Below are positions 10,053-39,044 of a stretch of 64,000 bases of DNA, piece by piece. How positions within the stretch are numbered: the first letter of the stretch is position 1; the number at the start of each line of letters is the position of its first letter. Both the position numbers and the translations under genes were made by a program. The notes under the pieces are model-generated. The model had not been told where the DNA came from. It made no database searches and was given only the letters and a program-made list of their open reading frames with translations. Source of the DNA: a virus. Location of the stretch: IMG/VR virus record IMGVR_UViG_3300045988_124250, one strand, 5' to 3'.

Positions 10053-13000
10053 ATGACTATGCCTGAAAGATTATATCCTCCTGTAATAGCAGGTACTTTA
10101 CCTGCTTTTTGTAAGAGTTATATTGAAACAGGCGACACGAAAGTATTAAAGGATGTTCAGATTACAATTCCTTTTACTGCGAGTGCCGCGGTCAATGATA
10201 AAGAATTTGTTGGATTTGTTTTACGATTAAAAACTGCTTCAACAAATACTTATTTATTTAATCCAATCGAATCAATGGATTTTAATACTGCTAATTCTAC
10301 TGTTACATTTACGATACCTCCTTCTTAGGGAGCCTTATTAAATGAAGGTTAGTATTACAAGGTACAATTAGCCTATATTTCACAATATACATAGACTGAA
10401 ACAAAAGAAGATCCTGACACGAAAGAAACTATTACAGTTAATGTTGTTAAAAAATTAACAGGATACTATTCTACTATTGGTATTATTAAATGTATTTAGG
10501 AACCTAAAATTTCAGTTAAAGGGTATTCAATTGATAGTATTAATTTATTTAATAATAATTTATTTGGTTTGTATGAATTATCTTCTGATTTTGATTAGAG
10601 TGAAAAAGTATATTCTTATAATTTTTCATTTTATACAGAAGAAGGGGAATTATATTATACCACTGGTGAATTATTACATAATAATTCTAATGATATTGAA
10701 TATGGAATATCTACTGATTCAGTTGTTTTAAGTAGTTTCATTAAAACTAGTGAAGTTTATAAATTAGTTTATACTGTTACAACTTTAAATGGATATGTGG
10801 CATCAAGCCCAATGTATAGAGTAACAGCAGAAACTTTATTAGCTCCTAGTAAAAGTATTTCAATCACAACAGACCCTCATCCAAATAGTGGATGTATTAA
10901 TGTTAATTTTCATGGTATTGAACGAGTAGTCCGTCAAGAAAATGTTATTAAGGAAATGACTCGTATTAATACTTATTATAATTATTCTAAAAATTTAATG
11001 ATAAAATTAAAACGATTCTATCAAGGGGCAAATAGTCCAGATAATCCGCAAATTAAAGAGTGGGTTGATCGAATTTAGGAATCAGGATTTGTTGTTAATA
11101 TTTTAGAAAAGTATAGAATATATTTACGAGATAATGTTTCATTATTAAATGATATGTGTGGTATTTCTACTGGTATTTTAGAGTCTTTAATTATGGAATC
11201 AAAAGAATTTGATTTATATTTAGGAGAATATTTAGGTTCTGTTATAGAAAATATCGGTAAAGAAAAAGAAGAAATAAATTATTATAATTTATTTAGTAAA
11301 TTTTTATGGAATACTACAGTATATATTGCTACTTCATTTGAAGGATATAAAAATTTAAATATTATTTTATAGAATAGAGTAAATTCTTATTTAAATTATT
11401 TATAGGATTCTATAAATGCTGATGAAACAGAGTTAGATTAGATTGTTACAGATTAGAGTTTAATTAATTTATGCCAAAATATTATTACTACGGCTAATTT
11501 ATCTACTGAATTAGCTAAAGAATATTTACATATTTTAGGATATGATTCTAATATTGAATACCAAGTAGATAAACAAGAAGATACTTATTTTGGTCAATAC
11601 ATTTTAGTAAGGGCCAGCGAAGAGGATGAATATCGTTCTTGGTTAGAATTAAAACGATTTAAACTTGAAAATATGAAACCATCATTAGTGGATTATAATG
11701 ATTATACTGTTAAACAAGGTGTTAAATATATTTATGGTATAATTCAATATAATTTGTTTGGTATTTACTCTTCTCGTATTGAAAGTGAACCCGTTTCAGT
11801 TGATTTTGAAGATATCTTTTTATATGATGGAGATAGAGTTTTAAAAGTAAAATTCAATCCTAAAGTATCTTCATTTAAAACTACAATATTAGAACAAAAA
11901 ACAAATACAATTGGCAATAAATTTCCCTTTATTTTCAGAAATGGAAAAGTTGCTTATAAAGAATTTCCTATTAGTGGATTAATTTCTTACCAAATGGATG
12001 ATGAAATTTTATTTTATGATAGAGAAATTCAAGATTATATTAGAACTTGTACTGACCATGCCGATATTAAAAATAGTACAGAATTTTTTGATCGTATGGA
12101 AAAAGTATTAGAAAATCCTTGTGATTTAATTGAAAATAATATTCATAAAGAGCGCAATTTTAAAATGGAAGTCTTAGATTGGTTAAATAATGGATAGCCT
12201 AAATTATTCCGGTCTGGACCAGAAGGGAATTTTATCGTTCGTATTATGAATATTTCTATGTCGCCAGTAGATACACTAGGACGTATGCTTCATTCTTTTA
12301 CCGGACAATGTGTTGAAATTGCGGATTTAACTTATGAAAATTTATTAAAATATGGATTTATAAAATCTGATATTGTTAGTAAATATATTTCATTATGGCG
12401 TAGTTATTATTTAAATGAATATGAGCCAGGTATGGATATTACTATAGATTTTGAATCAAATAATATTAGTCAATTTTCTGTTCAAGATTTATTACCTGGG
12501 TCTAGTATTTTCTTAACTTATGGTGATGTGTCAGAAAAAACAGAAGATGAAATTTTAATTGGAATTACTGGTTCATATACTTATAATAATTCAAGTCGAA
12601 AAATAAGTCGTATTAGAATACCTAATGATGAATATACTCATCCAGTAGGCATTTTAGAATGCCAGTATCAAGGAGTTCGATATGGAGACTTTGATGCAAT
12701 CACTGAAGTAAAATTAAAAACAATTTTAAGTCATTAGTTTGTAGGAGTTAATCCAGTATTAACTGAATTAGACACTTTAGTTACTAAATAGAAAGATTAG
12801 TCTTTAACTGAATCAGATGTTAATAAATTTAGAAATGCATTAAGCTCTTTAAATGAAAGAATTGTATTAAATAAATTAGATGCAAATTCTGCATTTGAAA
12901 AAATTTATGATACTTTAGCGGCTAAAGGATTTGAACCTGGCAATATTATGTCTTATATTAATACTCAATTCTATAACTATACTAGAGATAAATTAAAAGT

Positions 13001-16000
13001 TTTAAATTTAGAACAATTACACATAAAAGTGCGCGAATTAATACCTATTTATGCTGTACCTTATGAATATGTCACTCCTGAAGGATGGGCAAAGATAACT
13101 GCGGAAAATCCATCTGGAGTACCTTGGGCGATTAGTGATGGAAAAGCAACTCATGTATGTTTGCCTCAAGCTGATGGTAGTTATTCTAAATATGATTATG
13201 AAGAAAATTTCGGAAGTCAATATTTATTATATTCTGTTTCTCCTTTTGGAGAGCCCTATCCAATAGATGAATTAACTCCAAAAGTAAGAGAATATTTTAA
13301 TGTAAATGATGAATTTTGTGTATTTTAGATGTATGAGTATTTTCCTCATTTTGACTCTTGGATGCCAACATAGCGTACTAATATTTTTGGAGTAAAGACT
13401 GGTCAATATTATGATTGTTATTGGAAATCAGTGATTGATGATTTTGACACTTCATTTTATATCAATGAAAAATATCGTTATGAAAAATTACATGACATTC
13501 AATATGACGAAGAAGTTGGATTATATTATGTTTTAATTAAAAATAAAAAGACATATTTAAATGATGAATTAGAGTTGTATGTTGAAAAAGATGGAAAATA
13601 TAAATTAGTTAAGGATGTTTATATTATTCCTAAAGGAGCTACAGATAAATATCAAGATTATATTAATAATCAAATTAAAGCATTAAATGATTTAAGAGAA
13701 AAAAAATTACAAACTGCTATTATGTTTGACCATAAAGCTATTAATGATTTTTATGATGCTTAGATAAAATCTTTAGAAGATTTATTAAAAAACGCTACAT
13801 TCTATAAAACTATAAAAAATAATAATGAATTAATTCATGAAAAAGATTATTTATCAACAGCTATTCGTTGGTTGAATAAAGAAGATTATAATCCAGTTCC
13901 TGAGTTTTATCATACTGATTGGACTGTTGATGAAAATAGTATTGCTAAGTCAATTGTATAGCAAGATTAGATTAAAGATTTTTATATTCGTTTTGATAAT
14001 TCTGTAGAGTTAGAGTATGATGATAATAGATATTTTTCTAATTTAAGCTCTCCTGATATAATTAAGATTGGTACGGGGCTAATAGCGGAAGCAACGTTTT
14101 AGTTAGAAATTTTAGATTATTATACTGAAGTAAATGATAGTGAAACAAAACGAGCTAAAGATAATTATATATAGCAATCAGAATTTTTAAGAGCTTTATA
14201 TCGTAATTATGAACTAATAGCAGAAGCTGATAATAATTTTTAGAGATATTTAACTTTAACTCGCAGTTATAATACTTTATTAAATGGTTTATCAGAATCA
14301 AATAATATTCCTTATGAAGATTTAAATGATCATCAATCTCGTTTAGAAAGAATAATTAATTGGCAGGATCGTAATATTATTAATGAAATTTTAAATACTA
14401 TGAAACCAGCAGCATTAAAGAATTTTGATATTGTTGATTTATGGTCAAATGATATTACTGAAGAGAAGAAAGCTGAAATAAAAAAAGAAGTATTAAAAAC
14501 AATTAAGCGAATGTAGATAAATAAAGGTATGTATACTGAATTAAAATTATAGGATGAAGAAGAATAGGATTTATTAGATTTAATTTAGCAACCAACTAAA
14601 GAAGGTATTAATTCTAAATTAAATAAATTAGATTCTTTATTACAATCTCTTTATAATAATTAGAATTCTGCTATTGAAAATGCTAATTCTATTGCGAATG
14701 ATTATAGTGGTTTATTAAATCAAATTTATGAAATCGCTGATAAAAATGGTCAAACGCTTACTGATGATGGTTATAATGCAACTGTTTATAGATATAAAGC
14801 GGCATTATGGTTATATTGTTTAATTTATTAGAGTATAGCTAATCAATTAACAAATGTTACTTCTTCTAATTACAACTCAATAAAAGATAATCTTGAGCAA
14901 ATTGAGTCTTCAATTAATATTACTGAGATTTTAACTAATATAAAAAATCATTATAATAGAGTTTTAGCAGGGCTGGGCAGTACCAATACTTCTGAAGCTG
15001 AGGCTCGTCGGAATCAAATGAATTATTATATTGATGCTTGGACTTCTATTCAAGGATTATATGATACTATAATAGGGTATTTAGCTATTATAAAAGATCA
15101 AGATGACGATGATGCTTTAGATAAATTATTATATCAAAAAGTTTTGGGTGGCATACATGAAATTTTATGGTATTATGGACGTTTAAAACAATCTCGTAGA
15201 AATTTAAATAAATTATTAGGATAGACTGATAATTTAGATTCTGACACTAAAGCGTTTATTAATTTTATTGGTACTGATGATAATGATAATTTTTTATATC
15301 CTTTTAATGCTTGCGTTGATTTAATTGAGAAATTAAAAAATACTAAAATTGATTTAGATAATATGGATACTCTAAAGGATTTATTTTAGGTATCTAGTTT
15401 AATTGATATAGGAAATACTATTGCTTCTGATTATACTGCTTTAAATTTAAAATTACAAGGCGGTACTGAATAGAATGGCTTGGAAGATGAAGACAGTTCT
15501 TCTATTATTAAATTTATTTTAGCGGCAGATAAATTAGATTATGTTTGTTAGTCAGCAAAAGAATTAAATTGGCCTAATTCAATTATAAATGATAGTACTA
15601 GTTTATCATCTAAGTTAAATTATTATTTATAGAAATCTATTACATTCTCAGGGTGGTGGAGCGATAGGAAAAGAGATCTTTTATATTGTTTAGCTTTTAG
15701 AGATCGATTATTATATTCATTCTATTATTACGAGAAGAATAATCGTAAATATTCAGATTCTTATATAACTAAATTAGGTTCTTCTATACAAAGTACTATT
15801 CGATCTAGTTCTAATCGTAATATTATTTTAGACATTGAAGGAAATAATTCAGATGAAGGAGATAATTCAATTTTTAATAGTATTGAATTTGATTAGAATA
15901 CTTATGGTCTTGAAGCTACTAATATTCGTATAGTTAAAATTAATAAACTATTGTATATTATTGATAATACTTGTTTACCAGTAAAAGAGAATGGATATAA

Positions 16001-17327
16001 ATATGTTTTAGATGCTATTATTAGTTTAATCACTCCAAATACTACAAATAATTATATGAATACTGGATTCTCGCGTTTGTTAGATGCCAATACTATAATA
16101 GCTAATTATAATTCTACTATTACAAATTATCAATAGCTATTGGTTAGTAATGGTATAAATACTTCAACTTATAAATTAGTAGGAAAAATTGAAAAAAATG
16201 ATATTTTCTTAGAGTTAGGAAAATATTATTATTTAGAAAATAATTTTTATAAACAAGCTACTTTAAGTAATTATGATTCAAATGTAGACTATTATTTAAA
16301 TGAAAAAGATTATTTAATAAAAAGTTTTATTGATTATTTTAGTCAATTAGCGGTATCTGCTAACGATTAGAAGAATAATAATTATAATTTTATTGAATCT
16401 TATTTAACAGCAACTAAACTTGCTAATTTGCGATAGGGAACATTTAATTTATATTCTAATAATAAATTTGTTTCTACTATTTTAAGTGAAGAAAATCAAA
16501 GCGATAGTGAAGATATTAAAAAACATCCTGAACGTAATATTATTGATAATATTATTAATTATACTTATAAAACACGCTCTAATTTTATTTCTAATAATGT
16601 CGGTGGAGATAATGCGCTATCTGAATATGGTACATTAAAATCCATATTAGAATTATATAATTCTAATTTAGATGGATTATATACTACTTTATTAAAAACC
16701 TATAAATCTTTAGGTAATAAAATTTTCATTTAGGATAAAATAAAATCTTTAAATAATTTGTCAGGGTATAAAGTAAATATTACAAAAACAAATCCTACTG
16801 TTAATGAAGTAAGATATCAGCATTTATTAATGTTAAAAGGATTAGCAAAAATTTCAGAATTGTGTTATTGGTGTAATACTCAATTATTTAATGAATATAG
16901 AATTGATCCATTGTTAATTGAATTATTTACTAATTTACCTAAATTATCTAAACCTAATGAGAATTATTCTTCAATTACAAGTATGGGAATTTTTTATTGG
17001 TATATTGAAAATGTTTTAAATAAAGATATAAATGCTTATAAAGACGCGATTGAATAGGCAGAATTTTTAATTACTATTTATACTAATAAGCAAGAAAATT
17101 ATAAAACAAAAGCTGAATATTATTAGACTGAATATGAAAAATATCTTACTATTTTTAGAGGATTCTTATCAACGCGATTTTATGACTATTATGATGCCGA
17201 TGATACTGCATCAAAAGATAAATAGATGCGTGAATTAATTGAAGCAGTAAAAGATGCTTGGAATAAATTTATATTAACTCTTGATAGAGGGTTTACTAAA
17301 GAGATAGAGGCGGGTATGTATCAATGA
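10053..17327 (+). CDS. Giant tail/baseplate protein (about 2425 codons) in a single 7.3-kb frame interrupted only by TAG
   Basis: RBS AAAGGAGA. ORF pieces 10053, 10797, 11154, 11673, 12246, 12948, 13431, 15018, 15951, 16140 and 16758 are all in frame 3 (positions congruent to 0 mod 3). I read every codon: only TAG stops occur until TGA 17325-17327, which overlaps the next gene's start as ATGA. The start could instead be the second ATG at 10059. Confidence 0.6.
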
Positions 17328-20134
17328 AAAATAATCCTTTGTTAGATACTCATTTTTTGAAATAGTTAGATTTAGACAACCAGAAAGAAGTTTTTATTAA
17401 AATTGTAAGTTTAAATAAAGATGAAGAACCTGTCGAATCGATTGAAGGTAAAGCTTCTGGAGGATCCATCAATATTGATGGGTCCTCCGCTGTTCGTCGT
17501 TCTTGTTCAGTACAACTAGTATCTGAAGGAGTAAATATTACTGATGTATATTGGGGATTAACAACTAAATTTAATCTTTATATTGGCCTGACTAATAATA
17601 TTGATTCTGATTATGATGATTTAATTTGGTTCCCGCAAGGTATGTTTTTAATTACTGCTTTTAATACAACACTTACTTCTACTGGATGTAAAATTGCTAT
17701 TTCAGGAAAAGATAAAATGTGTTTATTAAATGGTGATATTGGAGGAAATTTTCCTAATCCAATTGATTTTGCAATAGAATTGGTTGAATATGATGAAAAA
17801 AATTTAAATATATCTGAACTAATTATAAAATATAATTTAATAAAAAATTTGCATTGGCGAATTAATAAAGACACCGAAATTCAATATTTAACTGATGAAG
17901 GTATAGCATATTTAACCGAATAGCAAAATAATGAATCAATGTTAGGTATTATTGAAGTTAAAGATAGTATTAGTGGAGAAATTAAAAAATATAAAAAAAT
18001 AAGACGTCCTATTACATATATTATTCGTGAAATGATTCATTTTTATGGAAATGAGCCTTTTCATAATATTTTAATTAAAGATGTTGATGATAAAGGTTTA
18101 GAATTATTACGATATACTGATGGTGATTTTTATGCTTTTTTAGATGATAATGGCATTTATGTTAATATTACTTTTGATACAACTTTAACAAAATATACTA
18201 CTACTGGAAAGAAAGTCCAATTAAATCAATTAACAGATAGTGAATTAACTGAAATTGGTTCAAATAATTTTAAAACTAAAATAAAAGATAATCCTAATGA
18301 TAAAATAGGATATTATGTTTCTAAAATTAGCGGTACAGGTACAGCTGGATATCGAGCAGTAGATTTATATTGGCCTGATGAAGATGGCTTGGTAGTTAAT
18401 GTAGGAGATACAATCACTTCAGTGCTTGATAAAATTTGTTCTACTTTTGGAGATTATGAATATTTTTATAATCTTAATGGACAATTTGTTTTTTAGAAAA
18501 AGCGGACTTATGTAAATTAGTCTTGGACTAGTATGATAAAAACTACAGATTCAGCTAATCCTGAAGAAGATGAAAAATTAAATTCTATTTATGAAAAGCA
18601 TGATAATTAGTATACTTATAATCAGATTTATGCAGAAGCTGCAATGTTAGCTTCAAAAAGTTCTTATAATTTTTCAGATAATGTTTTAATTTCTTCATTT
18701 TAGCATACTCCTGATTTTTCTAAAATAAAAAATAATTTTATGATTTGGGGTAAAAAGAATCCAACTACTGCAAATAGTGAAGGCGTACCCATTCATTTAC
18801 GATATGCTATTGATGAAAAACCTAAAAAATATACTACAATTGATGGAAGAGTTTATCGTTCCTATGATCCATTAAAAACTGGAGAATTTGTAAAGACACC
18901 TAATCCAAAAGATACTTTATAGGGAACTGCTCTTGATGAACAATGGTGGGATGTTAAAGACTGGGCTGAACTTTATAAATTATATTTAGGGTAGTATCCT
19001 GATAGAGAGTTAGGAGATTATTATGATGGAGAAAATGGAGGAGTAAATATAGATATTGCTTCTCTTTATGGCGAATGTCATAATGATGAATTAATGAAAA
19101 AGTTTTATGGGACTTCCTGTAGTTCAAGTTATGGTTAGTGGAATGATTGGGAAAACAGAAAATTATATGTTTTTGATTTACTGTCAGATGGTAGTATAGG
19201 ATATACTGGACATGGTTCTATGTGTACGCATCCTTGGGCAAGTTGGTTTGACCCTTTATATCAAAAAGGTGGTAAGGCTTATGTGTATTAGCCAGTAATG
19301 CCAGGTCAAGATAAAAATACATAGTATTATGTAAAATAGAATTGGCGTGAATTAATTTATCAAATGGCATTAGATTATGAGAAATATGGACATAATGATG
19401 ATTATGCAGTAAAATTAGCTCAAAATAATCCAGAATTTAAAAATGGATGTACTGGTTATGAAAGTTATTACGCTGATTTATTAGCCTATTGGAGAAAAAT
19501 ATATAATCCTACAACAATTGATTATAAAAATTATTTTGTTGGTATGCCGAATCCACAAAAACCTGAGGAGTAGATGCCATTACCAGATAATGAAAAAGAG
19601 TATTATGGATGGAATAGAAAATATATTACTGACCCTTCTACATTAGAATTTTGGATGGATTTTATAGAAGATTCAGAATGTACGATAGGTAAGTACTCTG
19701 TGAAAGCTATTGGAGATAGGCCGAAAATTGTTAATAATGATGCTATTAAATCTATTATTTATAGGGATACTCCTAATATAATTTATATTAGTCCTGAAAA
19801 ATATAGTTTATATTAGAAACAAAATTTATTATAGGATGGATATGCTTATATACCAGTACCTAAAATGTATGAAAATAAATTTGTTATTTCATCTTAGGGT
19901 AAAACAACATATGATGAATTGAATAATTTATTATATCAATATGCTTATTTGAATGAAAAAATAAATTTAAAATCTGTCCCTGTTTATTATTTAGAACCAA
20001 ATACAATTATTACAGTTGATGATAATAAAAGTGATATACATGGAGAATATATTTTAAATAAAATTACCATTTAGTTAAATCATAATGGTATGATGACTGT
20101 AGTGGCTACAAAAGCCCCTCCAAGATTGCTATAA
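17324..20134 (+). CDS. Tail/baseplate structural protein (about 936 codons) with in-frame TAGs
   Basis: ATGA overlap with the upstream stop. ORF pieces 17642, 17939, 18740, 19364 and 19574 share one frame and are linked only by TAG. Ends at TAA 20132-20134. Confidence 0.6.
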
Positions 20135-20150
20135 GAGAGGAGACGGAGTA

Positions 20151-20492
20151 ATGGCTAAAAGTGTTGTTTAGTTTCGATATTTTGGTGAATTAAATGAAAA
20201 AAATTATCCAGTAACAATAACTAAAGCTAAATTAATGTCAGGAGTAATTTTTGATGATTATACTCCTATTATAAAATTAGGAATCCAGAGTTTACCAGGT
20301 ACTAAATTTAGACTTAATGCCAATCAAGATTATATAATGATTGGCGGAGTTGGTTTGTATGAATTAGATATGACTTAGGGTTCTGGTGTAGTAACATCTA
20401 TTAATTTTGATGAAATGTCATTAACTAATATAGATGAAAATCAAGATGCTTATTTATTAATAGATATTTTATATGAAAAGGAGGGGAGTTAA
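20151..20492 (+). CDS. Small structural-module protein (113 codons, 2 TAGs)
   Basis: RBS GGAGACGGAG plus ATG at 20151. Ends at TAA 20490-20492. Confidence 0.5.
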
Positions 20493-24128: not shown

Positions 24129-24132
24129 ATAA

Positions 24133-24173
24133 AGTTGGCCCATAAGGATTAATTATGGGCCAACTTTTTTTAT
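24133..24173 (+). terminator. Rho-independent terminator (agttggcccataa / ttatgggccaact plus T7)
   Basis: 13-bp inverted repeat followed by TTTTTTT. Confidence 0.65.
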
Positions 24174-24239
24174 ATATCAATAGTAAGGGAAAAGATTTCT
24201 TTTATAATTATAAATGATTCTAAAGGAAAGGAGATTAAT

Positions 24240-25178
24240 ATGCCAAATAATGTTAATTATGTAAAGTTTTAGCGCGGTACAATAACTGCTTATAATTCAT
24301 TAAAGGCGCGAAAACTAATAGATCCTAATACTTTATATTTTATCTATGAATCTGCGGATAAGAAAAATGGATATTTATATTTAGGAGATAAATTAATTAG
24401 TGGCTCTGGCTCGGGGACTAATATTACTAAGTTATCTGATATTAGTGATGTTTTAGAAACTGTAACTGATGCTGGTGCGTTTTTAGTTAAAAATGACAGC
24501 GGTAAATGGGAAAGTAAATCATTAGCTGATGTTGCTAGTTTAATAGCTAGTCAATTAGAGATTAATATTAATGCTAATACGTTTGAATTCAAAACTGTTG
24601 AAGGCACGAATCCTGAATTAAATCTCATTGGATTTGATACTGCAGAAAGTGGTTCTTATTTGAGAAAAGGAGCTGCTGGTAAGTTAGAATGGGAAAAGCC
24701 CGAAGAAGATTTTCATACTATTAGTACTAAAATTATTAATCTACAAAATCAAGTTGATAATTTTAATACTGTTATTAAAAATGAAATCGCAAATGCGAAT
24801 CATTTAACCTATAAACCCGTTGGCAGCTTAGAAGATATTACTTCAGCGGAAAACAATAAAGAAAATGTTGTTTACTTAGTGCCTAATAGTAGTGGAGATG
24901 ATAACAATTCTTATGATGAATATATGCTTATCAACTCAAAGCCAGAAAGATTAGGTACATTTGGTAATGCTGATTTAACTGGATATGCGAAAACTTCAGA
25001 ATTACAAGCTGTTAAAAAGAAACTTGTTGAAGAATATACTTCGCTTGAGGTATTCAATTCTACTGTTGGCTCATTAAATGATCTCGGTAAAGCATACGTA
25101 GCTGGAGATACTACTAATATTGTCAACGAAATTAATAAAGTTTATGAGAGTATTATTTGGGGTGAACTCTCAGAGTAA
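24240..25178 (+). CDS. Fibre/receptor-binding-family protein (312 codons, 1 TAG at codon 11)
   Basis: RBS AAAGGAAAGGAG plus ATG. The N-terminal motif VKF-x-RGT...YF...D.K is shared with the genes at 25207, 26995 and 39174. Ends at TAA 25176-25178. Confidence 0.6.
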
Positions 25179-25206
25179 TTTTTAAAAACAAAAAGGAGAT
25201 TTTATT

Positions 25207-26853
25207 ATGGCTGATTATACTGGTAATGCTGTAAAATTTAAACTTGGTACTCAAGCGAGTTTAAATACATTAAAAGATTCTCAAAAAGGTTGGGAAGTAG
25301 GTACATTTTATTTAACTTCTGATAGTAGCCGTTTGTATATTGGTCAAGCTGATGAACTGGCTCTTCTGAATAAGAGTGTTGAAATTTATGACGATCTAAG
25401 CGCATTAAAGGCAAAAAAGACAGTATCTACTAAAGGCGATATTGCCTATTGTGCAAAAGAAAATGTTTTAGCATATTATAATGGTACTACTTGGAATCAA
25501 ATCAATCCTGATGACGATACTATTTTGACTGCTCTAACTCAAGTTGTTTCTTCAGTTGACAAGGGGGTTAAGATTACTACTGGTGGTATTAATAGTGATG
25601 CTGGTAAAACTATTACCGCGGCTGATGTAACTATTACTGGAGCTAAGGGTGCTCAAGTAGCCATGGCTAATAATAAAGCACTCACAATTACTGGTGATAC
25701 CTATGCTCTTAATGTTCAAGAGCATGCTGATGCGACTAATGATATTGATTTAGTATTAGATAGCGCGCTACAAGATGCTAGTACCGTTCATATCAAGGGT
25801 GGTGACAATGTAACTATTACTAAAGTTGCTGATAGTAATAGTATCCAAATCGTAGCTAAAGATACTAAATTAAATGACATTAGTTTAGGATTAGGCGCTA
25901 ATGGTGAATTACAAGTAGGTGCTAGCGATACTGGTACTACAAACGTTCTAAAGAAACAAAAGTTAGGATATTTTATTGATGGTAGTTATTATGGTATCGG
26001 TAGTGATAATGAGGCTAAGCGAGTAGACCTTCCTGTTTATTCTAAAGATCAAGTCGATGCGTTAATTAAGAAACTTGATGGTATGACTTATCGTGGTACT
26101 ATTGGTACTAGTGGCACGACCTTTACCATGGATGCAAGTTTCAATGTATTAAAGGGTGGAACGGCTACTGATATTCATATTGGAGATATGTTCCTAGTCC
26201 AAGGCAGTAAATTAACTTATGCCACTGGTAAAACTGCTGGTATCGGCGATTTATTGATTGCAACTGCTAAGGATGGTAAGTCAGAGACTAATGGCGTTTT
26301 AGCTATTGGTGATGTTGAGTGGACTTATGTACCTTCTGGCGATGATGCATAGATTGATACTACTTATATCTTTAAGGCTGAGGGCGCTACTGATAGTATG
26401 ACCATTACTTCTAGTAATGGTGGCGGAGTAGTTGGTAAAATTGCCTTTGCCGAAGGTGATGGCATTGTTATTGATTCTACTGATAATGGCGGTAAGGCAC
26501 CAAATCAGTTATCTGTTACTATCAAGCATGACACTTATGATACTACACCAACTACTGATGGTAAATCATTAACTAATGGTGGTACTTTCGATGTTATCGA
26601 TTCTATTACTTATGATAATGGTCATATCATTGGTATTAATACTAAAACTATTCAGACTTTAGAATATAAGCCCGGTCCAGATAGTGCTACTCGTGATGAT
26701 GCTACTAACACTGTTACTGTAGCACATACTTTACAAGCTGGAACTAGTTTAGTATCTGATAAAAATGCAAAGATGGTATTAAAATCTGATACTTTAAAAC
26801 TAACTGCATCTGGCAGTACTGTTACTGCTGATTTAGTTTGGGGTTCATTCTAA
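25207..26853 (+). CDS. Fibre/receptor-binding-family protein (548 codons), Ala/Gly/Thr-rich, with a single in-frame TAG at 26350
   Basis: RBS AAAAAGGAGA. The 381-aa ORF continues in the same frame through TAG into ORF 26398-26853 and ends at TAA. GC content and codon usage are atypical for the window. Under the standard code this would be two genes (25207-26352 and 26398-26853). Confidence 0.55.
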
Positions 26854-26913
26854 TTTGAGGACAGTTTATAATAATTATATTCGTGGTTTTTTTAAAAATC
26901 AACGAAGGAATTT

Positions 26914-26945
26914 GGGAGAGGAAAATTCCTCTCCCATTTTTTTTA
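26914..26945 (+). terminator. Rho-independent terminator (gggagagg / cctctccc plus T-run)
   Basis: 8-bp GC-rich stem, 6-nt loop and a TTTTTTTT tail. Confidence 0.65.
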
Positions 26946-26994
26946 TATATAATTTTGTTTTATATAAAATTTAAGATAGAAAGGAGATACTTGC

Positions 26995-29900
26995 ATGAGC
27001 AATAAACGATTCATCCCTGTTCGTGGTACTGAAGCTAAATTAGATTTAATGGGTTTTAATGATGGATATGTTTATTTTGCAGTTGATACTGGTAAAATTT
27101 TCATAGACTATACTCAAGCTGATGGTACAATGGTATCACGAAAGCTTTTAGGAAGCGGTAGTGGTGGTGGCTCAGGAAGTAATTCTGGTATTTATTATGC
27201 CAATTATACTCCGACCGATGCTGAAAAACTAGAAGATGAAATCAATATTCCAATCGGAGCTATTGAAGGCGGAGAGTATCCCGAAGAAGATGATTTAATT
27301 ATCAACTTAGGTGATAATTGTTTTTATCGTGTAATAAAAGTTCAGCGAGCATTTCAAAATGTACTATGTCGTCGTTTAACTGTTGCTGGTGGAGGCGGTG
27401 GAGATGACCCTGGTTCATTAGCTTCTGATATCGAATTAGCTGTAGATTCATTACCTACTGTTAATTTAATTAATGGACGTTCTCAAGAGGTAACATTTGT
27501 TGCTACATCAGCTAAAAATAAGAAGGGTAATTCTTATGACTCTATTCTTACAATCAATTGGAAATTAGAGTATACTGATGATGGTACTAACTATAATCAG
27601 TATAATTCAGGAACATTCCAAGTACCTGATGGTGAGAAATATGCTTTTGAATTTGGTAAATTAGCTAAGGATGATGCTTCTTCAAGATTAGTGTTAGTAG
27701 CTAGCCAAACCAATCATCCAAGCACAGTTACTCGTTTGATAACATTTAAAACTTCTAAGTTAGAACTACAAGAATCAAGCAGCTTTTCTAATTTAAGTTA
27801 TTTTGAACCTAATAAATTAGTACTGCAATGTAATGTTAATGGTGCGATGGATAAAATTGTTGAATATTATTTTGACAATGAAGATGAGCCATTTTTAAGC
27901 GTACCTTTAGCTGCTAATTCGGCTACATTATAGAGTGTTAATGTTTCACAATATATATCTGTAGTTAATGGTTATCATAAAGTTTGGATTCGTTTATTCC
28001 AATCTATTAATGGTAAAAAAGGAATTGAAGTTGAGCCTTTAATTTTTGAAGTAGCTGTTTATGATGGTTTAGACCCTCAAGCTCCTCCAATTATTTGGCT
28101 GGGAGATTATAAAGACGAATATTATAGTTATGACACTATTCAAATTCCTTTCCGTGTTTTTGACCCATAGGCTGAAAACCCAATAGTGCATTTTAAACGT
28201 AATAATATTGAACTTTCTTATTCTCCTCAAACAATTACTGATTCTAAAAATTATGCAATTTTTGAAATTGCTAATCCTGAATTAGATGTAATTAATCACT
28301 ACACTATTACTTGTGGCGATGGAGCACGTGAGACTACCCGTAAGATTGAAATTCGTGTAGTAAAAGACCCAACAAGAACAGATTTTGGTATTTAGAAACA
28401 AGGTTTCTTAACTTATTTGTTAAATACAGTTGGTAGTGGTCGTTCTAATTCTGAGACATTAGCTAAACGTACTACTTTAGTAAATTCTTCTACTGCTCTA
28501 GGTGCTGAGCCTTGTGCGGCGACGTTTACTAATTTTAATTGGTATAATAATGGTTGGACTACTGACGAAGACAATAAAACTTGTTTACGTATTAGTAATG
28601 GTGCTAAATTATCTATCCCTATTGGTCGTACTGTATTTTCAAACCCCAATGGTTCTCAAGCGACTGAACAATCTCATAGTATTGAATTGATGTTTAAAGT
28701 TCGTAATGTTCAGGATTATTCAAATTTAATTCGTACTATTACTCGTTATAAAAATGATGAAAATTTATATAAAGCATTTTATAATGAAGAGACGGGTGAA
28801 TTTAATTATAAAAATTATACTAACTATGATGCATTTTTAGCTTGGTATTTAAAAACTTATGAAGTTGATTTTGTTGATAAAAATGGCGTTAAACGCAGAA
28901 TGGAATATGATGATTTAGAATTTAGTCATATTGCTAAACAAATTAATTTAAATAATGTTATAGGCAGTTATTATTCTGGTAATACTAAAGCTGTTACTGG
29001 CTTATGTCTAGGCCCACAAGATGCATTTTTCTCTAATGGTACTAATACAGTAAACGTGTCTTACGTTGAAAATAAAATTATTACTTTATCTGTTGTTTGT
29101 AAATATAGTAAAGAAAAAATCCAAAACTTAATTTACATTTATTTAAATGGTGTATTGACTAGTGTTGTTAGAAATACTCAAGAAAATGGATTTACTGTAG
29201 AAAATGATAAAATTGAATTTAACAGTGATTATTGCGATATTGATTTGTATAAAGTTCGTGTATACCGCACTGATTTAAATGTTAATGATATTGTCATGAA
29301 TTATGCTGCTGATTTTGAGAATGTAAATATTTATGATCAAAATAAATTAGCAGAAGAAAATACTGCTATTGATGAATTCCAGTTTAGTTATACTAATATG
29401 ATAAAGTATAATAATGAACATCCTGATGCTCCATTAATGCCTTATATTATTTTTGATACTACTAAATTAGAAGATAGTGAAAATAAACTTCCTTATTCTA
29501 AAAAAGTTAAATTAAATGTTGGAGTTGAATTTGTTAATACTCCACTTGAAATGTATTATAATAAAGGTAAATTGGAAGAGTTAGCCAAAGCTGATAAATT
29601 ATTTGGTGATGGTGCTACGGCGGCTGAAAAACAAAAGGCTGTTGAAACTTATTATAAATATCATTGTCCTTCATTTATTAGCGATAGCGCATCAATGAGT
29701 GTTCAAGGAACTTCATCTGAATTTTATCCTCGTCGAAATTATAAAGTTAAAACTAAAAATAATGACGCGGTTGACGGCGAAAAACGAGTTAATATTTTCT
29801 TAAATCGTGGTCCATTTAGAGAGTAGTATAATGCTGATATGTTAGGCTCTACTTAGAAGCCTTATATTTTAAGCACAACATTAGGGCCTTTAGTTGATTC

Positions 29901-32900
29901 TGCTACTGGTCAATTAAAAATTAAATATTATGAAGATGAAAAAGGTGAAAAGGAAGTTGTCTTTAGTGAAACTAATCCTTATAAACCGAATACTTTCTAT
30001 ATTAAAAATACTAATTATGTAAAACGAGGAGAAGAAAAAACTCGTCAAAAATATTGGTATTTTAATAACTATACTTGTGGAACCCATAAATTTACCATGA
30101 AGATTGACTATATGGAATCTTCTGGAACTTATAATATGGGATTTGCGAACATGGTTAAAAATGCTTATTCTAAACATCCATTAGATGATTATAATAATGC
30201 AAAAGCGTTTTAGGTAGAAGACCCTGAATAGACCAATTATATTTTAGCAACGAAATATAAAGATGGTAAGGTTTATTGGTATAAAAACCATAAAGGTAAT
30301 TGGAAATCTACTGATGGCGTAGAAGATAATTTAAATGTTACTAATGCTGAAGATTTTGCTAAAGGACCTGTTGCTCTATATCCTGAGCAATATCCAACAG
30401 CAGAAAAAAATAAGGTATTAAGTGATACTGCTAGCGAATATTATAATAAATTCTATGAAATAGAATTTGGATATAAAGATTTCAAAGTTGATAATACTGA
30501 TGATTATCGCACTTCTGTGCGTGGTTTCCGCGTACTTGCATTTCATAAAAAGAAACCTTCAGATGGTAGTTCAGAGCCTATTTATCAATTTATTGGTATA
30601 TACAATATGCTTTTAGATAAAGGTTCTGATGAAGTATATGGATTCGCACTTGACAGCACTACTGGTAAAGATCCAAAAGCTAAATTTATAGGCGATGGTA
30701 CTAAGAGTATGCCTAAAGTAGCAGAATGTTGGGAGTTTGAAAACAATAGCCGCACCTTCTGCTCATATCGTGACCCACAAGACCGCAAAGATTTGAAATT
30801 TGATGTATTTAATACTGATGGTTCTCGTGTATTAAATGCAGTTCAATCTGCCCCTGTGGTAGCCGACTCATTTGAATATCGTTATCATGATGATGCTGAT
30901 ATACTTGATTATATTATGGCTCCTGATGGAGAATGTAAGAAAGACCCAACATTAACATTCTCTAAGGATGATATTACATTAAATCAAGAAAATCGCGCTC
31001 AGCATTTATTGAAAGATTATTCTAATTGGGAACGCGCTGTAGCTTGGGTTTGGAGTACTTGTACTGAAAAGGTAGTGTCTAATGGTACTTATAAAGTTTG
31101 TGATGTTGGTGAAGAGTTATTTGATAATAGTAAACACTATATCATGACAACTAATCCATTAACTTCTGAATAGATCTATACTTTGGCTAAAGAGTATGTA
31201 GAAGGTACTACTTACTATAAAAAGAATCCTGATTATAACCCAAATCAAGAAAATAGTAGTGAATATATTGTTGCTTATATTGGAACAGTGTTATTTAGTT
31301 CTAATAAAACTAAATTATATACTGGTGAAATTGATAAAAATAATAATATTACCTATGTTCCTTGCTATAGTACTGATACATTCAATCCTGATAAACAATA
31401 TTATACTTTGGAATCTTATAGCGATGAAGAGCTAGATACAAAGGCTGATAGATTAGTTGTTTTATGTAAAGATGAAGCATTTGATGCAAGTAAAACATAT
31501 TATAATTATGATGGAAATGCTAAATGTGGTAAAGCAGTAACTAAGGCTAATGTGACTGCTGAAACTTATGAACCAAATAAATATTATATTGGAACCATTA
31601 TTACTTATGGTGATCGCTCTTATAAATATGACACGCAAGAGTATCGTGGTGATAAATTTACTTATGAATTAAGTGACCACTTCGATAAAGAATATATGGC
31701 TACATATTTTGTTATGACAGAAATTTTTGAGTGTTATGATTCTCGTGGTAAAAACTGTATGATGGCTTCTTGGGGTCCTCAAGAGAAAGGCGGAGACTAT
31801 ATTTGGTATCCAATTTTCTATGATATTGATACTCAATTAGGTATTAATAATACTGGTATTCCATCATTTGAATATAACGTTGACGCCACTGAAGATGGTA
31901 ACTATTCTACTTCTGACAGTGTTTTATGGAATAACTTCTATAAATATTTTAAAACTGGTTTAATTATTCCTAAATATAGACATTTACGTGGTATTACTAC
32001 TAGTGTATTTGGTTCTAATTTAAAACAACCTCCTTTAAAAACTGTAGATCGTATTGAGTCATATTATTTGACTGATTATAATACAACAAATAACTTGGCT
32101 GATTTAGGTACTCGCCCATTAGTAGCAGTCAATTTAGATGAATATTATAAATATATCACTATTACAAATGATGCCTCTTATTTAGATGGTACTACTGGAC
32201 ATATTAGTAGTGATACAACTGGTGTATATACTGTTGATACTAATGGTACTTATTTCTACGCCTTACAAGGAAATAGAAGTCTATCTCGTCAACAGTTCTT
32301 ATCTAACCGCTTAGAGTATATTGACTCTTGGTTAAATGAAGGTAATTATCAACGTGGTGGTGCAAACCGCATTCGTGGTCGTGTAGCTGCCAATAATAAA
32401 AACAAAACTTCAGATAAATGGATTGAAACCGCCAGTGATCCTTATTTCAAGGATGAGAGCACTTTAACCAAAAACCATTTATTTGATGCTGAATATTGGA
32501 TGACATTAACTCCGGCTCACTCTTCTTATGTTACTCTTGGTGATGATAATGAAGCCTATCCTTCTCGTAAATACGATGGTGTTCATGCGCTAAGATTTAA
32601 TATTGATTCTATTGAAAATGGTGTCCGCAAGAGTGAAAATTATCCTGAGCAATTACTATATGTTTATGGTATTAACCAAATGAAAGATCTTGGTGATATG
32701 AGTAATCTATATTGGCAAGAATTTGAAATTTCTGGTGACGCTACTAAATTGACTAGTTTGAAATTAGGATATGATGGTCTGGATGAAAATGGAGAGCGTT
32801 GGTATAATGATAATGTTAACCAATTCAGTATTCCTGCCAGCTCTTCTGATAGTAAAGGTATGCCTTTATTAAAAGAAGTAAATATGAGTAATATTCAATT

Positions 32901-35145
32901 TAATGCTGCTTCTCCTGTATTAGATTTAACTAGTTGTGAAAAATTAGAGAATTTCCGTGCTACTGGATCTAATTTAATTAACGTTCAGTTTGCTAAGGGC
33001 GTAGCATTAAATACTGTATATTTACCTACTAGTATTACAAATCTTGAATTGGTTGAAGCCAACCTATTAAAGAATATAATTACTGAAGATGAATATAAAA
33101 ATCCTACTCGTGATGATGAAGGTAATTTACAAGCTAATCCTGGTTTATATCTCCAAGGTTTCTTTGATAAGATTTCAACTGGAGATAAAGGAGATACAAT
33201 GATTGCTTCTCTAAATATCGCTGGTGGTGGTTTAGGTTATGATAGTTATAAGCTATTAAAGCAATATTATACTATTCGTAGCCAATAGACTAACACTTCT
33301 TAGATTTCTATGACTAATGTTAATTGGTGTCCATATATTTAGATGACAGTCGACGATGAGCGCAATCCATCTACTACTTATTATGTGGATAATGGACATT
33401 ACGGACTAGAACCTTATACTTATACTAATTTTGATGCATGGACTGTTAAAGTTGAAAATGGTGAAATTTATCGTAAAGATGAAACAATTCCAGAAGATAA
33501 AATAAATCAAATCACTGATTTAGTTATGTTCAAAGAATTTATTAGTGATAAGAAATGGATTAAAAACTCTAGTAAAAATATTCCTGATATTTCTGGCATT
33601 ATTTATATTAATAATACAGAAACTATTAAAGAATCTGAATTACGTAACACCATTCAAGTGGCTTATCCTAATTTAACAATTTTCTGTGCGAATGTTGAAT
33701 AGGGATATACTGCTAGATTTGTAATTATGGATGAAGATGAGGGTAACGATGGTCGCTATCAATTAATTGGTTCTATGACCTTAAAAGATGGTGAAACTTG
33801 GTTTGCAGACCCTATTGATGCATTCGGCGATATTAGTGAGAAGAAACCAAATCATGATTTCTATGGTTGGGCGTTAACTAATTCTAAAAATGCAGATATT
33901 CTTATTAATATTGATAAAAGTATTAATAAATGGAACGAGCAAACTATTGATTCTAATATTCATACTTATATATTCTATGCTATTTGTCCTATTCATGAAT
34001 GGAGCGTTAAATATTATTATAAAGATAATACATTAATTGAAGAAAAGAAAATTCCTCATGGTAATTACGCTGTAATGTCTACTATTATTCCTTGGAAAGA
34101 TGATAGTGATTTACCATTAGACCAAACTTATAAATTCTTAGGATATAGTCGTTCTATAACTGCTTCCTCTGCTATGAAATTAGAAGAGTATATGATTACT
34201 GAGGATACTACATTTTATGCAGTATTTGATAATAATCCTATTAATGTATATGAAGATATCCATCCTGAGTATTTTGCAGTTTCTGAATAGACATCTGGCC
34301 TCACTCCAGCAGATACTTATTATACCGACTGGGCGGGAGAAACAAAATGGAATATCCCAGATGGTGTAACTTTAGCCTTGACTAAAAAAGTTAAAGGTAA
34401 AATTACAGTACCCGCCTTCTTTGATGTAAATGGAGTATCTAAAAAAGTTATTGCTATTGATGCAACATTCGGTTCCCCTGGAGATATTTATGATACAGAT
34501 ATTGATGCTCCTCGTAATCCAGGATTCGAGGGAAAATCTGCTACATTAAATTCTATTACTTACGTTCCAGTTTGCTATGGTGAGAATCTAACTCATGTAT
34601 TCTTTGAAAAATATAAAGAAAATGATATTGAAAAATGCAATATTAGATTTTTCTGTGGTGCTACTTTTTCTCATTCAATGAATTTAGTATGGGTAGAATT
34701 CCCTGAAGGTTTGAGATTAATTGGAGACTATGCATTTAAAATGCCTGGTTGTCAATCTCGTGTAGTATATCCAAAATTCTCTAATGTAAGTATTGGTGGT
34801 ACAATTGCAGTCATCAATCAAAGTGCATTCCAAAATACATTTTCTGGAGATAATGATACATTAACCATTGGTTCTAATGTTTAGAAGATTGATAATGGCG
34901 GTTTCACCTTCTCTAGTTATAGTGATTTAAATAGTGATAGAACATTAGGTATTAAAAAGATTATTATTGGTACACCAGAAGAAAAATCTAAATTGCGTAT
35001 CGTATCTGGTGACCCAGCCTTTATTAACTATGCCTCTTGGTCGGCAATTACTATAGAATCAGTCGATTGGTATACTACTTTGAAACAAGATGCTGCTAAT
35101 TCACTATTCTCAGGATTTAATAAAATTAATTATATTAATTCATGA
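26995..35145 (+). CDS. Giant multi-domain receptor-binding/tail protein (about 2716 codons, about 16 TAGs) with a C-terminal BspA-like leucine-rich-repeat domain
   Basis: RBS GAAAGGAGAT. ORF pieces 26995, 28186, 28417, 30517, 31183, 33343, 33727 and 34378 are all in one frame (positions congruent to 1 mod 3). Read codon by codon, no TAA or TGA occurs for 8.1 kb, until TGA 35143-35145. There are Gly/Ser linkers near 27160 and an LRR-like stretch near 32880-33060. A BspA-type LRR (IGDYAFKMPGC...INQSAFQN) lies at about 34380-35140. Confidence 0.55.
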
Positions 35146-35159
35146 AAGGAGAAAAGAAA

Positions 35160-37404: not shown

Positions 37405-37433
37405 TAAATTAGGAGAAAGGAGAATGAATAATC

Positions 37434-39039: not shown

Positions 39040-39044
39040 TAATA

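What the first reader, a model, noticed from the sequence alone, without database searches (positions are those of the whole stretch)
10053..35145. Giant virion proteins of 2.4 to 2.7 thousand residues that exist only under the recoded reading
Besides the tape measure (more than 2340 aa in this window), two further single frames of 2425 codons (10053-17327) and 2716 codons (26995-35145) are continuous when TAG is sense. In each, the 7 to 11 ORF fragments all fall in one frame. If they were independent genes, about one third of the fragments would be expected in each frame. These would be exceptionally large tail, baseplate and receptor-binding proteins.
Basis: seen in the sequence. Interest (0 to 1): 0.6.

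Follow-up and report, generated by a model that had tools for sequence, protein, structure and literature searches.

The report
Two giant tail genes, TAG-recoded phage
Two genes of about 2,400 and 2,700 codons in the tail region of a gut phage are real single genes that can only be read if the stop codon TAG means glutamine, which is a known trick of gut phages, so the finding is correct but mostly ordinary.

Summary
Frame 10053-17327 (pA) has 41 in-frame TAG and frame 26995-35145 (pB) has 14. Neither has a TAA or TGA before its final TGA.

Both are single genes, not strings of cistrons:
- Chance openness is about 10^-81 and 10^-75.
- No TAG is followed by a ribosome-binding site plus start codon.
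- TAG positions drift freely among relatives and swap mainly with CAA/CAG (Gln).
- dN/dS is 0.03-0.13 along most of both genes (0.35 in the pB tail).

pB belongs to a large unannotated family (132 clusters, about 2,000-2,900 aa). Of 78 related loci, 29 are standard-code phages with one uninterrupted ORF of 2,470-2,676 aa, 43 are TAG-recoded and 6 TGA-recoded. So its size does not depend on recoding. It looks like a multidomain tail fibre or adhesin, with a BspA-type LRR end and a CotH-like middle.

pA is an expanded member of a very large family of unknown function (phrog_30026), whose members are typically 800-1,100 aa. It carries a roughly 1,500-aa extension seen only in TAG-recoded relatives.

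The phage is a distant relative of the published code-15 Phassvirus group. I rate it a new member of a known kind, of moderate interest.

The parts
3..7028 (+). C-terminal part (over 2,341 aa) of the tape measure gene, with 49 in-frame TAG. Context for the finding.
   Evidence: The TAG-sense ORF is. It is 47-80% identical to the first ORF of related loci. In relatives L005 and L116-L121 that gene carries Pfam PF10145 PhageMin_Tail.
7141..10032 (+). p970, a variable tail-module protein between the tape measure gene and pA, with 19 TAG.
   Evidence: Only its first ~100 aa are conserved, and its size ranges from 170 to 2,742 aa in relatives. It has no PHROG hit.
10059..17327 (+). pA, a single gene of 2,422 codons (2,424 if counted from ATG 10053) with 41 in-frame TAG read as Gln. 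The stop is TGA at 17325-17327.
10053..10922 (+). pA residues 1-290, a conserved N-terminal region modelled as tandem FN3/Ig-like beta-sandwiches.
10923..11567 (+). pA residues 291-505, a lineage-specific insertion predicted helical at low confidence.
   Evidence: It is absent from the 860-1,300-aa relatives. The AF2 model shows helices at pLDDT below 50. Its HMM finds nothing in other loci.
11568..12752 (+). pA residues 506-900, the conserved core shared with phrog_30026 and with the 617-aa protein of Enterococcus phage VRE9_2/EF1.
   Evidence: The exhaustive profile search finds 4,168 representatives.
12753..17324 (+). pA residues 901-2424, a C-terminal extension rich in Leu, Asn, Ile, Tyr and Lys. 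Its last ~115 aa (ending GMYQ) are conserved among giant homologues.
   Evidence: It was found only in TAG-recoded relatives. dN/dS against L007 is 0.055-0.114, so it is translated.
17324..20134 (+). p945, the conserved partner gene (phrog_32343). Its ATG overlaps the pA stop as ATGA.
26995..35145 (+). pB, a single gene of 2,716 codons with 14 in-frame TAG read as Gln. The stop is TGA at 35143-35145.
27811..28746 (+). pB residues 273-584, a region matching phrog_24896 (unknown function).
31630..32409 (+). pB residues 1546-1805, the most conserved block. It matches phrog_14959, Hankyphage p00 and Bacillus phage G gp353. Residues ~1547-1650 align to the stretch that scores as Pfam CotH in family member P0180.
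34663..34932 (+). pB residues 2557-2646, a BspA-type leucine-rich repeat (LRR_5) at the fast-evolving C-terminal end.
   Evidence: pB itself scores 23.9 bits in Pfam, below the 27.7 cut-off. Most family members pass it. The family profile hits solved LRR_5 proteins 4fs7 and 4gt6 at E 1e-25. dN/dS is 0.35 for codons 2099-2716.

Best explanation
The window comes from a large low-GC gut phage; its closest relatives are contigs of 130-250 kb. Its late genes are written in genetic code 15, in which TAG is read as glutamine.

Under that code, pA (10059-17327, 2,422 aa) and pB (26995-35145, 2,716 aa) are each one cistron translated end to end.

pB is a giant multidomain tail fibre or adhesin. It has a conserved N-terminal part that would anchor it to the tail, a CotH-like central block, and a rapidly evolving C-terminal end with a BspA-type LRR that would bind the host surface.

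pA is an expanded member of a very common but uncharacterised tail-tip protein family (phrog_30026). That family always sits just upstream of a phrog_32343 protein. pA adds a roughly 215-aa insertion and a roughly 1,500-aa extension to the usual ~900-aa body.

Shown here: continuity of both frames, sense decoding of TAG, purifying selection, orthology and gene order. Inferred: Gln as the exact residue (strong), virion location, receptor binding, and the source of the suppressor tRNA.
For: 1. Open frames are far beyond chance.
2. All 27 TAG-sense ORFs in the window end in TAA or TGA, never TAG. TAG makes up 35-50% of Gln-type codons in the genes from the tape measure to p1212, but 0% in the DNA polymerase.
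3. None of the 41 pA TAGs and none of the 14 pB TAGs is followed within 30 codons by a start codon with a Shine-Dalgarno match of 5 bases or more.
4. TAG columns are not conserved. There are 225 distinct columns among 9 pA homologues and 201 among 10 pB homologues, and none is universal.
5. Codons opposite TAG are mainly CAA/CAG. The count is 24 of 41 in close pB relatives, and CAA is the top class in the pA family even though it lies two mutations from TAG. At TAG columns, standard-code homologues have Q 3.5 times above background.
6. Full-length homologues of pA exist (2,262-2,429 aa, 41-92% identity, 100% coverage) with invariant residues to the very last positions.
7. pB orthologues are single uninterrupted ORFs of 2,470-2,676 aa in 29 standard-code loci, and equally long in 6 TGA-recoded loci.
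8. dN/dS is 0.055-0.13 in every pA segment and 0.025-0.06 in pB codons 1-2098.
9. The pA stop overlaps the next gene's start as ATGA.
10. Gene order is conserved in all relatives examined: tape measure, p970-like, pA-like, p945-like, p1212-like, two further small genes, then pB-like.
11. pB matches the Hankyphage DGR-target protein and a 1,673-aa protein that follows the tape measure, Dit and three further annotated genes in phage NatCom_3357.
12. The published relative phAss-1 uses TAG for Gln and carries three tRNA-Sup-CTA genes (PMC10607447). Its pA homologue is a 1,885-aa ORF with 25 TAG.
Against: - No tRNA of any kind lies in the window or in any held related locus, so the decoding agent is not shown for this genome.
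- No peptide or ribosome-profiling data exist.
- The pA core has no recognisable fold beyond FN3 domains and no annotated relative. Its structural role therefore rests on position alone.
- pB itself does not reach the Pfam thresholds for CotH or LRR_5.
- The AF2 model of pB residues 1394-2098 finds no solved fold at E below 0.2.
- With 41 TAGs, full-length pA needs very efficient suppression. By arithmetic, 0.95^41 = 12% and 0.99^41 = 66%. That efficiency is unproven.
Confidence: 0.85

Rival explanations
1. The frames are strings of separate small genes that each end at TAG and restart downstream. In this view the single frame is coincidental or reflects translational coupling.
For: Under the standard code, the first fragment of each frame begins with a good Shine-Dalgarno site and ATG. 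Standard-code relatives encode the pA core as a shorter 858-916-aa protein.
Against: - There is no TAA or TGA in 2,424 and 2,716 codons, with chance probabilities of 10^-81 and 10^-75.
- None of the 55 TAGs is followed by an SD plus start.
- TAG positions are not conserved among relatives.
- TAG interchanges with CAA/CAG.
- pB is one ORF in 29 standard-code genomes.
- No gene in the window ends in TAG.
Confidence: 0.02
2. TAG has two meanings in time. Early in infection it terminates, so only short N-terminal stubs of pA and pB are made. Late in infection it is suppressed, so the many TAGs work as a translational gate on the giant late proteins. This is the Borges et al. model, and it would add to the main explanation rather than replace it.
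For: TAG is absent from the DNA polymerase, the primase fragment and the dUTPase-like gene, but dense in tail genes. The same early/late bias is described for other recoded phage clades (bioRxiv 10.1101/2021.08.26.457843).
Against: Several minus-strand replication-module ORFs also contain 1-5 TAGs, so the split is not clean. No expression data exist. Nothing in the sequence distinguishes gating from a simple mutational drift of Gln codons to TAG once suppression exists.
Confidence: 0.35
3. TAG is a sense codon but encodes a residue other than glutamine, for example Lys, Tyr, Glu or Trp.
For: At pB TAG columns, standard-code homologues most often have Lys (35 of 114 non-gap cells), with Gln at 15. 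AAA is the second commonest codon opposite TAG in the pA family, at 12%.
Against: - CAA/CAG are the commonest partners (59% in close pB relatives, 25% in the pA family), and CAA needs two substitutions from TAG.
- Lys is simply abundant at variable surface positions in these AT-rich genomes.
- Published relatives carry tRNA-Sup-CTA predicted to be charged with Gln (PMC10607447).
- Gln at TAG has been confirmed by mass spectrometry in other gut phages (PMC9523058, abstract only).
Confidence: 0.05
4. The giant frames are decaying pseudogenes or assembly chimeras and are not expressed.
For: None specific. The many stop codons under the standard code are what one would see in a pseudogene.
Against: dN/dS is 0.03-0.13 over nearly the whole length. 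The same genes, at the same length, occur in dozens of independent assemblies from different samples. Only TAG is enriched in frame, never TAA or TGA.
Confidence: 0.01

Closest known systems
[quoted passage not shown] 2023, PMC10607447)
   Same: - TAG is in frame in the tape measure, tail fibre and other late genes.
- The tape measure is very long (3,149-3,209 aa there, over 2,341 aa here).
- A replication module lies beside the structural module.
- A pA-core homologue is followed by a p945 homologue. In phAss-1 these are 1,885 aa with 25 TAG and 746 aa.
   Different: - The relationship is distant: 27-35% identity in short stretches and no nucleotide match.
- Relatives of this window are about 130-250 kb rather than 136 kb.
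- The pA extension (ending GMYQ) is not shared with phAss-1.
- No pB homologue lies in the phAss-1 stretch examined, and the pB search of the phage collection listed no phAss-1 hit among the 25 of its 27 records that were shown.
- The suppressor tRNAs seen in phAss-1 could not be looked for here beyond the 64-kb window.
Stop-codon-recoded gut phage clades of Borges et al. (Lak, crAss-like, Jade, Sapphire, Agate and others; bioRxiv 10.1101/2021.08.26.457843)
   Same: - Recoding is concentrated in structural and lysis genes.
- Replication genes are largely compatible with the standard code.
- A single clade mixes standard, TAG and TGA codes. Here the pB orthologues split 29 standard, 43 TAG and 6 TGA.
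   Different: I could not test whether this phage belongs to any named clade. That work does not single out giant tail proteins in the passages read.
Hankyphage (Bacteroides phage p00) 2,245-aa DGR-target protein, and the 'CotH kinase domain fused to hypervariable C-type lectin' phage proteins noted as unstudied by Benler et al. 2021 (PMC8008677)
   Same: Each is a giant single ORF just after the tail genes. The central block is homologous (pB 1540-1800, 25% identity, E 1e-10). CotH-family similarity is present in family members.
   Different: pB ends in a BspA-type LRR, not a C-type lectin. No reverse transcriptase or template/variable repeat pair lies nearby. The host phylum probably differs.
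BspA-type LRR (Pfam LRR_5) cell-surface proteins of gut bacteria (PDB 4fs7, 4gt6, PcpA 4cp6)
   Same: The pB family's C-terminal ~250 aa match these by profile at E 1e-25 to 1e-18.
   Different: Those are bacterial surface proteins of 380-450 aa. Here the module is the tip of a 2,700-aa phage protein.
Enterococcus phage VRE9_2/EF1 gene pair phrog_30026 (617 aa) and phrog_32343 (921 aa)
   Same: The pA core (residues 530-775) and the p945 protein are homologous to this pair, and the two genes stand in the same order.
   Different: Those phages use the standard code. The pA counterpart is a quarter of the size and lacks the FN3 N-terminal region, the insertion and the extension. Both genes are annotated only as hypothetical proteins.

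Membership tests
Genetic code 15 phage (TAG read as Gln) | Conserved genes are interrupted only by in-frame TAG and become full length when TAG is read as sense. | tested here: met
   Homologues cover 100% of pA and pB across all TAG positions.
Genetic code 15 phage (TAG read as Gln) | TAG positions correspond to Gln in homologues. | tested here: met
   CAA/CAG account for 59% of non-TAG partners in close pB relatives and are the top class in the pA family. Q is enriched 3.5-fold at TAG columns against standard-code homologues, although Lys is numerically commoner there.
Genetic code 15 phage (TAG read as Gln) | TAG is not used as a terminator. | tested here: met
   All 27 TAG-sense ORFs of at least 150 aa end in TAA (17) or TGA (10).
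Genetic code 15 phage (TAG read as Gln) | The phage encodes a suppressor tRNA with anticodon CTA. | tested here: inconclusive
   No tRNA was found in the 64-kb window or in 21 related loci, all of which are structural modules. The rest of the ~200-kb genome is not available. Published relatives carry 2-3 copies.
Genetic code 15 phage (TAG read as Gln) | Recoding is biased to late (structural and lysis) genes. | tested here: met
   The TAG share of Gln-type codons is 0.19-0.50 in the large tail genes. It is 0 in the DNA polymerase, primase fragment, dUTPase-like gene and holin-like gene.
pB family (phrog_14959, giant tail proteins) | Significant match to the family profile and full-length collinear homologues. 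| tested here: met
   phrog_14959 matches at E 7.8e-43 against a 2,494-position profile. There are 132 clusters of about 2,000-2,900 aa, many at 96-100% coverage.
CotH protein kinase family (Pfam PF08757) | Score above the Pfam gathering threshold, or a CotH-like fold. | tested here: inconclusive
   pB and its 93%-identical relative P0074 have no CotH hit. Family members P0180 (28.9 bits against a 23.8 cut-off) and P0193 (47.7 bits) pass, and P0180's hit maps to pB ~1547-1650. The Foldseek search of the model of pB 1394-2098 returned no significant match to any solved structure, and the family profile lists no CotH entry among its PDB matches. Catalytic residues were not mapped.
BspA-type LRR (Pfam LRR_5, PF13306) | Score above the gathering threshold, or a profile match to solved LRR_5 proteins. 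| tested here: met
   pB alone scores 23.9 bits, below the 27.7 cut-off. Most family members carry PF13306. The family profile hits 4fs7 and 4gt6 at E 1e-25 in the C-terminal region.
DGR (diversity-generating retroelement) target protein, as in Hankyphage | A nearby reverse transcriptase and a template/variable repeat pair at the 3' end of the gene. | tested here: not met
   There is no repeat pair involving the pB 3' end within 26-47 kb. No reverse-transcriptase-like gene was recognised in the window; the ORF map and PHROG scans covered only part of the ORFs.
pA-core family (phrog_30026) | Significant match to the family and conserved position upstream of phrog_32343. | tested here: met
   pA itself gave no PHROG hit. 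However, 25 of 26 homologues match phrog_30026, pA 530-775 aligns to the phrog_30026 protein of VRE9_2, and the next gene matches phrog_32343.
Siphovirus distal tail protein (Dit) or tail-associated lysin (Tal) | Sequence or fold similarity to Dit or Tal. | tested here: not met

The most novel reading that the evidence does not exclude
Two readings remain open.

(a) The ~1,500-aa extension of pA arose and persists only in TAG-recoded lineages. The reason would be that dozens of in-frame TAGs act as a built-in timer and dosage gate: the giant protein is made only once suppression is near-complete. Code change would then be mechanistically coupled to the evolution of very large late proteins.

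(b) pB carries an active CotH-type kinase on the virion tail, which modifies host-surface or phage proteins during adsorption.

Neither reading is excluded, and neither is supported beyond correlation. All 13 giant pA-type genes whose DNA I examined are TAG-recoded, but they probably form one clade. For (b), the family has invariant Asp and Asn residues in the CotH-like block.
Probability: 0.1. Interest if true: 0.7.

Novelty: new member of a known kind. Interest (0 to 1): 0.4.

Why it matters
The finding shows concretely that standard-code gene calling destroys the largest and most informative genes of such phages. Here, 42 and 15 fragments replace two proteins.

It also brings out two very widespread protein families with no annotation in any source checked:
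- the roughly 2,500-aa pB family of tail proteins with a CotH-like block and a BspA-type LRR;
- the pA-core family, with more than 4,000 representatives at 50% identity.

Because pB orthologues exist in standard, TAG-recoded and TGA-recoded relatives, the family is a ready natural experiment on how sense-codon usage drifts after a code change. It is also a good target for mass-spectrometric proof of decoding.

None of this overturns current understanding. Code-15 phages with recoded late genes and very long tail proteins have already been described.

Tried and rejected
- **Nucleotide search:** pA against 50,697 phage records gave no match.
- **pA against libraries:** PHROGs and Pfam gave nothing significant. 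The family profile found nothing in PDB sequences.
- **Dit/Tal idea for the pA core:** hhalign probability was below 1%, and Pfam and NCBIfam on 26 members gave nothing.
- **Names for pA-core relatives:** only 'hypothetical protein'.
- **pA extension as a separate or relocated gene in standard or TGA-recoded relatives:** HMMs of four extension segments found it only in TAG-recoded giants L116 and L118.
- **CotH fold for pB 1394-2098:** the model is decent (pLDDT 77), but Foldseek found nothing at E below 0.2. A PDB sequence search with CotH-positive P0193 hit only T4-type fibre repeats in its N-terminus.
- **DGR near pB:** none found.
- **TAG-free 704-codon stretch of pB as a special constrained or recently imported segment:** rejected, because other relatives carry TAGs throughout that region.
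- **Suppressor tRNA:** none in the window or in the held loci.


Full report
**Observation**

The window is 30% GC. Frame 10053-17327 holds 41 TAG, no TAA and a single terminal TGA. Frame 26995-35145 holds 14 TAG, no TAA and a single terminal TGA. From base composition, the chance of staying free of TAA and TGA over 2,424 and 2,716 codons is about 10^-81 and 10^-75. The other five frames of the same DNA carry TAA+TGA at 4-17% of codons.

Reading TAG as sense nearly doubles the ORF content of the window, from 11,206 to 20,433 aa in ORFs of at least 150 aa. It also turns the + strand from 3 to 44183 into a nearly gap-free row of long genes. TGA-as-sense gives no comparable gain, and TAA-as-sense gives 78 shorter ORFs rather than such a row. 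The true counts are 42 and 15.

**One gene or many**

Several independent tests agree that each frame is one cistron.
- None of the 55 in-frame TAGs is followed within 30 codons by a start codon with a Shine-Dalgarno match of 5 bases or more. The real starts of pA, pB and most neighbouring genes have such matches of 4-7 bases.
- All 27 TAG-sense ORFs in the window end in TAA or TGA, never TAG.
- TAG positions behave like ordinary sense codons in evolution. Among 9 pA homologues there are 225 distinct TAG columns, none universal. Among 10 pB homologues there are 201, none universal. The 97%-identical relative shares 39 of 41 TAG columns, while relatives at about 50% identity share only 8-13.
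- Where one sequence has TAG and another does not, the partner is most often CAA or CAG. The count is 24 of 41 in close pB relatives. In the pA family CAA is 22% and the top class, even though it is two substitutions away from TAG. Against standard-code homologues, Q is enriched 3.5-fold at pB TAG columns.
- dN/dS against close relatives is 0.055-0.13 in every segment of pA, including the long extension. It is 0.025-0.06 over pB codons 1-2098.
- The pA stop (TGA 17325-17327) overlaps the ATG of the next gene as ATGA.
- The likely pA start is ATG 10059 rather than 10053.

**pB**

A database search found 132 protein clusters, almost all of 2,000-2,900 aa. Many cover 96-100% of pB at 35-93% identity.

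I fetched 78 related loci from IMG/VR and scanned the frame under each code.
- 29 loci are standard-code genomes in which the orthologue is one uninterrupted ORF of 2,470-2,676 aa, where the contig holds the whole gene.
- 43 loci are TAG-recoded, with 1-46 in-frame TAG.
- 6 loci are TGA-recoded.

This is the strongest single result. The giant protein is real, and its size has nothing to do with recoding.

Domain evidence for pB is as follows.
- It matches phrog_14959 (profile length 2,494) and phrog_24896, both of unknown function.
- The family has a C-terminal BspA-type LRR. It is just below threshold in pB itself and present in most members. The family profile hits solved LRR_5 surface proteins at E 1e-25.
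- One member has a LamG-type lectin hit just below the Pfam cut-off, and another a Listeria-Bacteroides repeat hit well below it.
- The central, most conserved block (residues 1546-1805) is homologous to the 2,245-aa DGR-target protein of Hankyphage. It also matches a 1,673-aa protein that lies downstream of the tape measure and Dit genes, three genes further on, in phage NatCom_3357, and Bacillus phage G gp353.
- Two distant members pass the Pfam CotH threshold, and the hit in P0180 maps to pB ~1547-1650. Benler et al. note that CotH-family kinase domains fused to hypervariable lectins occur in phages and are unstudied (PMC8008677).
- pB itself does not reach the CotH threshold. An AF2 model of residues 1394-2098 (pLDDT 77) finds no solved fold at E below 0.2. 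I therefore call the block CotH-like, not CotH.
- The C-terminal 600 residues evolve fast (dN/dS 0.35), while the rest is strongly conserved. That is the usual pattern of receptor-binding proteins.
- No reverse transcriptase or template/variable repeat pair was found, so pB is not a DGR target.

**pA**

Full-length homologues (2,262-2,429 aa, 41-92% identity, 100% coverage) share invariant residues to the last positions, ending GMYQ.

Of the pA-related loci whose DNA I examined, all 13 giant forms (1,898-2,935 aa) are TAG-recoded: L005-L011, L031, L116-L118, L120 and L121. The seven standard-code relatives encode 858-916 aa, and the six TGA-recoded ones 1,000-1,321 aa. These shorter proteins correspond to pA residues 1-290 plus 505-900. 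They are followed directly by the homologue of the next gene, p945.

An exhaustive profile search shows the pA core to be a very large family. It has 4,168 representatives at E up to 1e-3, typically 800-1,100 aa. The ten clusters whose names I looked up carry only 'hypothetical protein' or no name.

The core matches phrog_30026, and p945 matches phrog_32343. The same pair, in the same order, occurs in standard-code Enterococcus phage VRE9_2/EF1 as proteins of 617 and 921 aa.

HMMs of the pA insertion and extension find counterparts only in other TAG-recoded giants. They find none among the ORFs of standard or TGA-recoded relatives. Giants share homology to about residue 1150 and again at 1310-1470. 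The last ~115 residues define a GMYQ subgroup, and other giants end differently.

The giants probably form one clade, so the link with TAG recoding may be purely phylogenetic.

**The phage**

The minus-strand half of the window encodes several replication genes.
- A DnaE-type DNA polymerase is 40% identical to SPbeta YorL and has no TAG.
- A primase fragment and a dUTPase-like gene also match PHROG families.
- A holin-like gene lies next to them.

Relatives are contigs of 130-250 kb, some of them labelled as human gut or Hadza samples, with tape measure genes of 2,600-4,400 aa.

The published phAss-1/Phassvirus group is a distant relative. It uses TAG for Gln, has three tRNA-Sup-CTA genes and a 3,149-aa tape measure, and is related to Enterococcus phage EF1 (PMC10607447). 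Mixed genetic codes within one clade and recoding of late genes were described by Borges et al..

No tRNA lies in the window or in any held locus. The decoding agent for this genome is assumed, not shown.

**Verdict**

The phrase 'exist only under the recoded reading' is true of this genome. It is misleading for pB, whose orthologues are just as large in standard-code phages. pA is the real outlier.

The phenomenon belongs to a known kind, code-15 gut phages. The specific families are unannotated and could repay study. One point follows by arithmetic only: with 41-49 TAGs per gene, per-codon suppression must be about 98-99% efficient to give useful yields of full-length protein.

Noticed in passing
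window 26995-38042, compared with L008/L038, L009/L047 and L011/L040: Conservation is mosaic. In contigs where pA, p1212 and p556 are only 35-53% identical to the window, pB is 88-92% identical and p205 is 93-99.5% identical. In the closest relative (L007), most tail genes are 92-98% identical but the tape measure is only 55%. This suggests module exchange among these phages.
   Followed up: partly
window 26995-35145: pB has a lower TAG share of Gln-type codons (0.19) and a higher GC (0.313) than the neighbouring tail genes (0.35-0.50 and 0.25-0.28). Other lineages carry 20-46 TAGs in the same gene. This is consistent with a pB allele that has spent less time in a TAG-sense background.
   Followed up: partly
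related loci L038-L115 (pB orthologues) and L012-L037 (pA-core orthologues): One orthologous gene set occurs in three genetic-code states among related phages: standard, TAG-sense and TGA-sense. The counts are 29/43/6 for pB and 7/20/6 for pA-core loci.
   Followed up: yes
related loci L012-L031, L116-L121: The size of the gene before pA (p970-like, 170-2,742 aa) tends to vary inversely with the size of the pA-like gene (858-2,935 aa). Examples are 170+2,935, 225+2,720, 2,742+895 and 1,877+860. It looks as if large appendages attach to one or the other protein of the tail tip.
   Followed up: no
L116 and L121 (also L118, L120): Tape measure genes in relatives reach 4,179 and 4,378 codons. At the usual ~1.5 angstrom per residue (a rule of thumb, not tested here), that implies tails of roughly 0.6 micrometre.
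   Followed up: no
window 38743-39040 and 43881-44184: The 3' ends of two consecutive tail-fibre-like genes, 38146-39039 and 39105-44183, share about 300 nt at 70-77% identity. This is a shared C-terminal module.
   Followed up: no
window 40659-40949: Four tandem 66-nt (22-aa) repeats encode Gly-His-x-His motifs inside the 1,693-aa fibre-like gene 39105-44183. That gene also matches tail-fibre PHROGs.
   Followed up: no
window 35722-35781 and 37602-37661: The genes at 35434-37404 and 37428-38042 share a 60-nt stretch at 77% identity near their 5' parts, which suggests paralogous N-terminal modules.
   Followed up: no
window about 44000-44600: Gene orientation switches from + (structural) to - (replication) here. 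Cumulative GC skew peaks in the same place, at 42-44 kb.
   Followed up: no
window 45842-46543: This + strand ORF (234 aa, phrog_16490, unknown function) has 40.5% GC against about 30% around it. It uses CAG more than CAA (7 against 5), unlike every other gene in the window, and may be a recent import.
   Followed up: no
window 7141-7440: By eye, the N-terminal ~100 aa of p970, the only part conserved in all relatives, resembles the OB-fold motif of gp5/gpV-type spike proteins (...VYVLIPQGDFSGKKLITG). This is a recollection, not a test.
   Followed up: no
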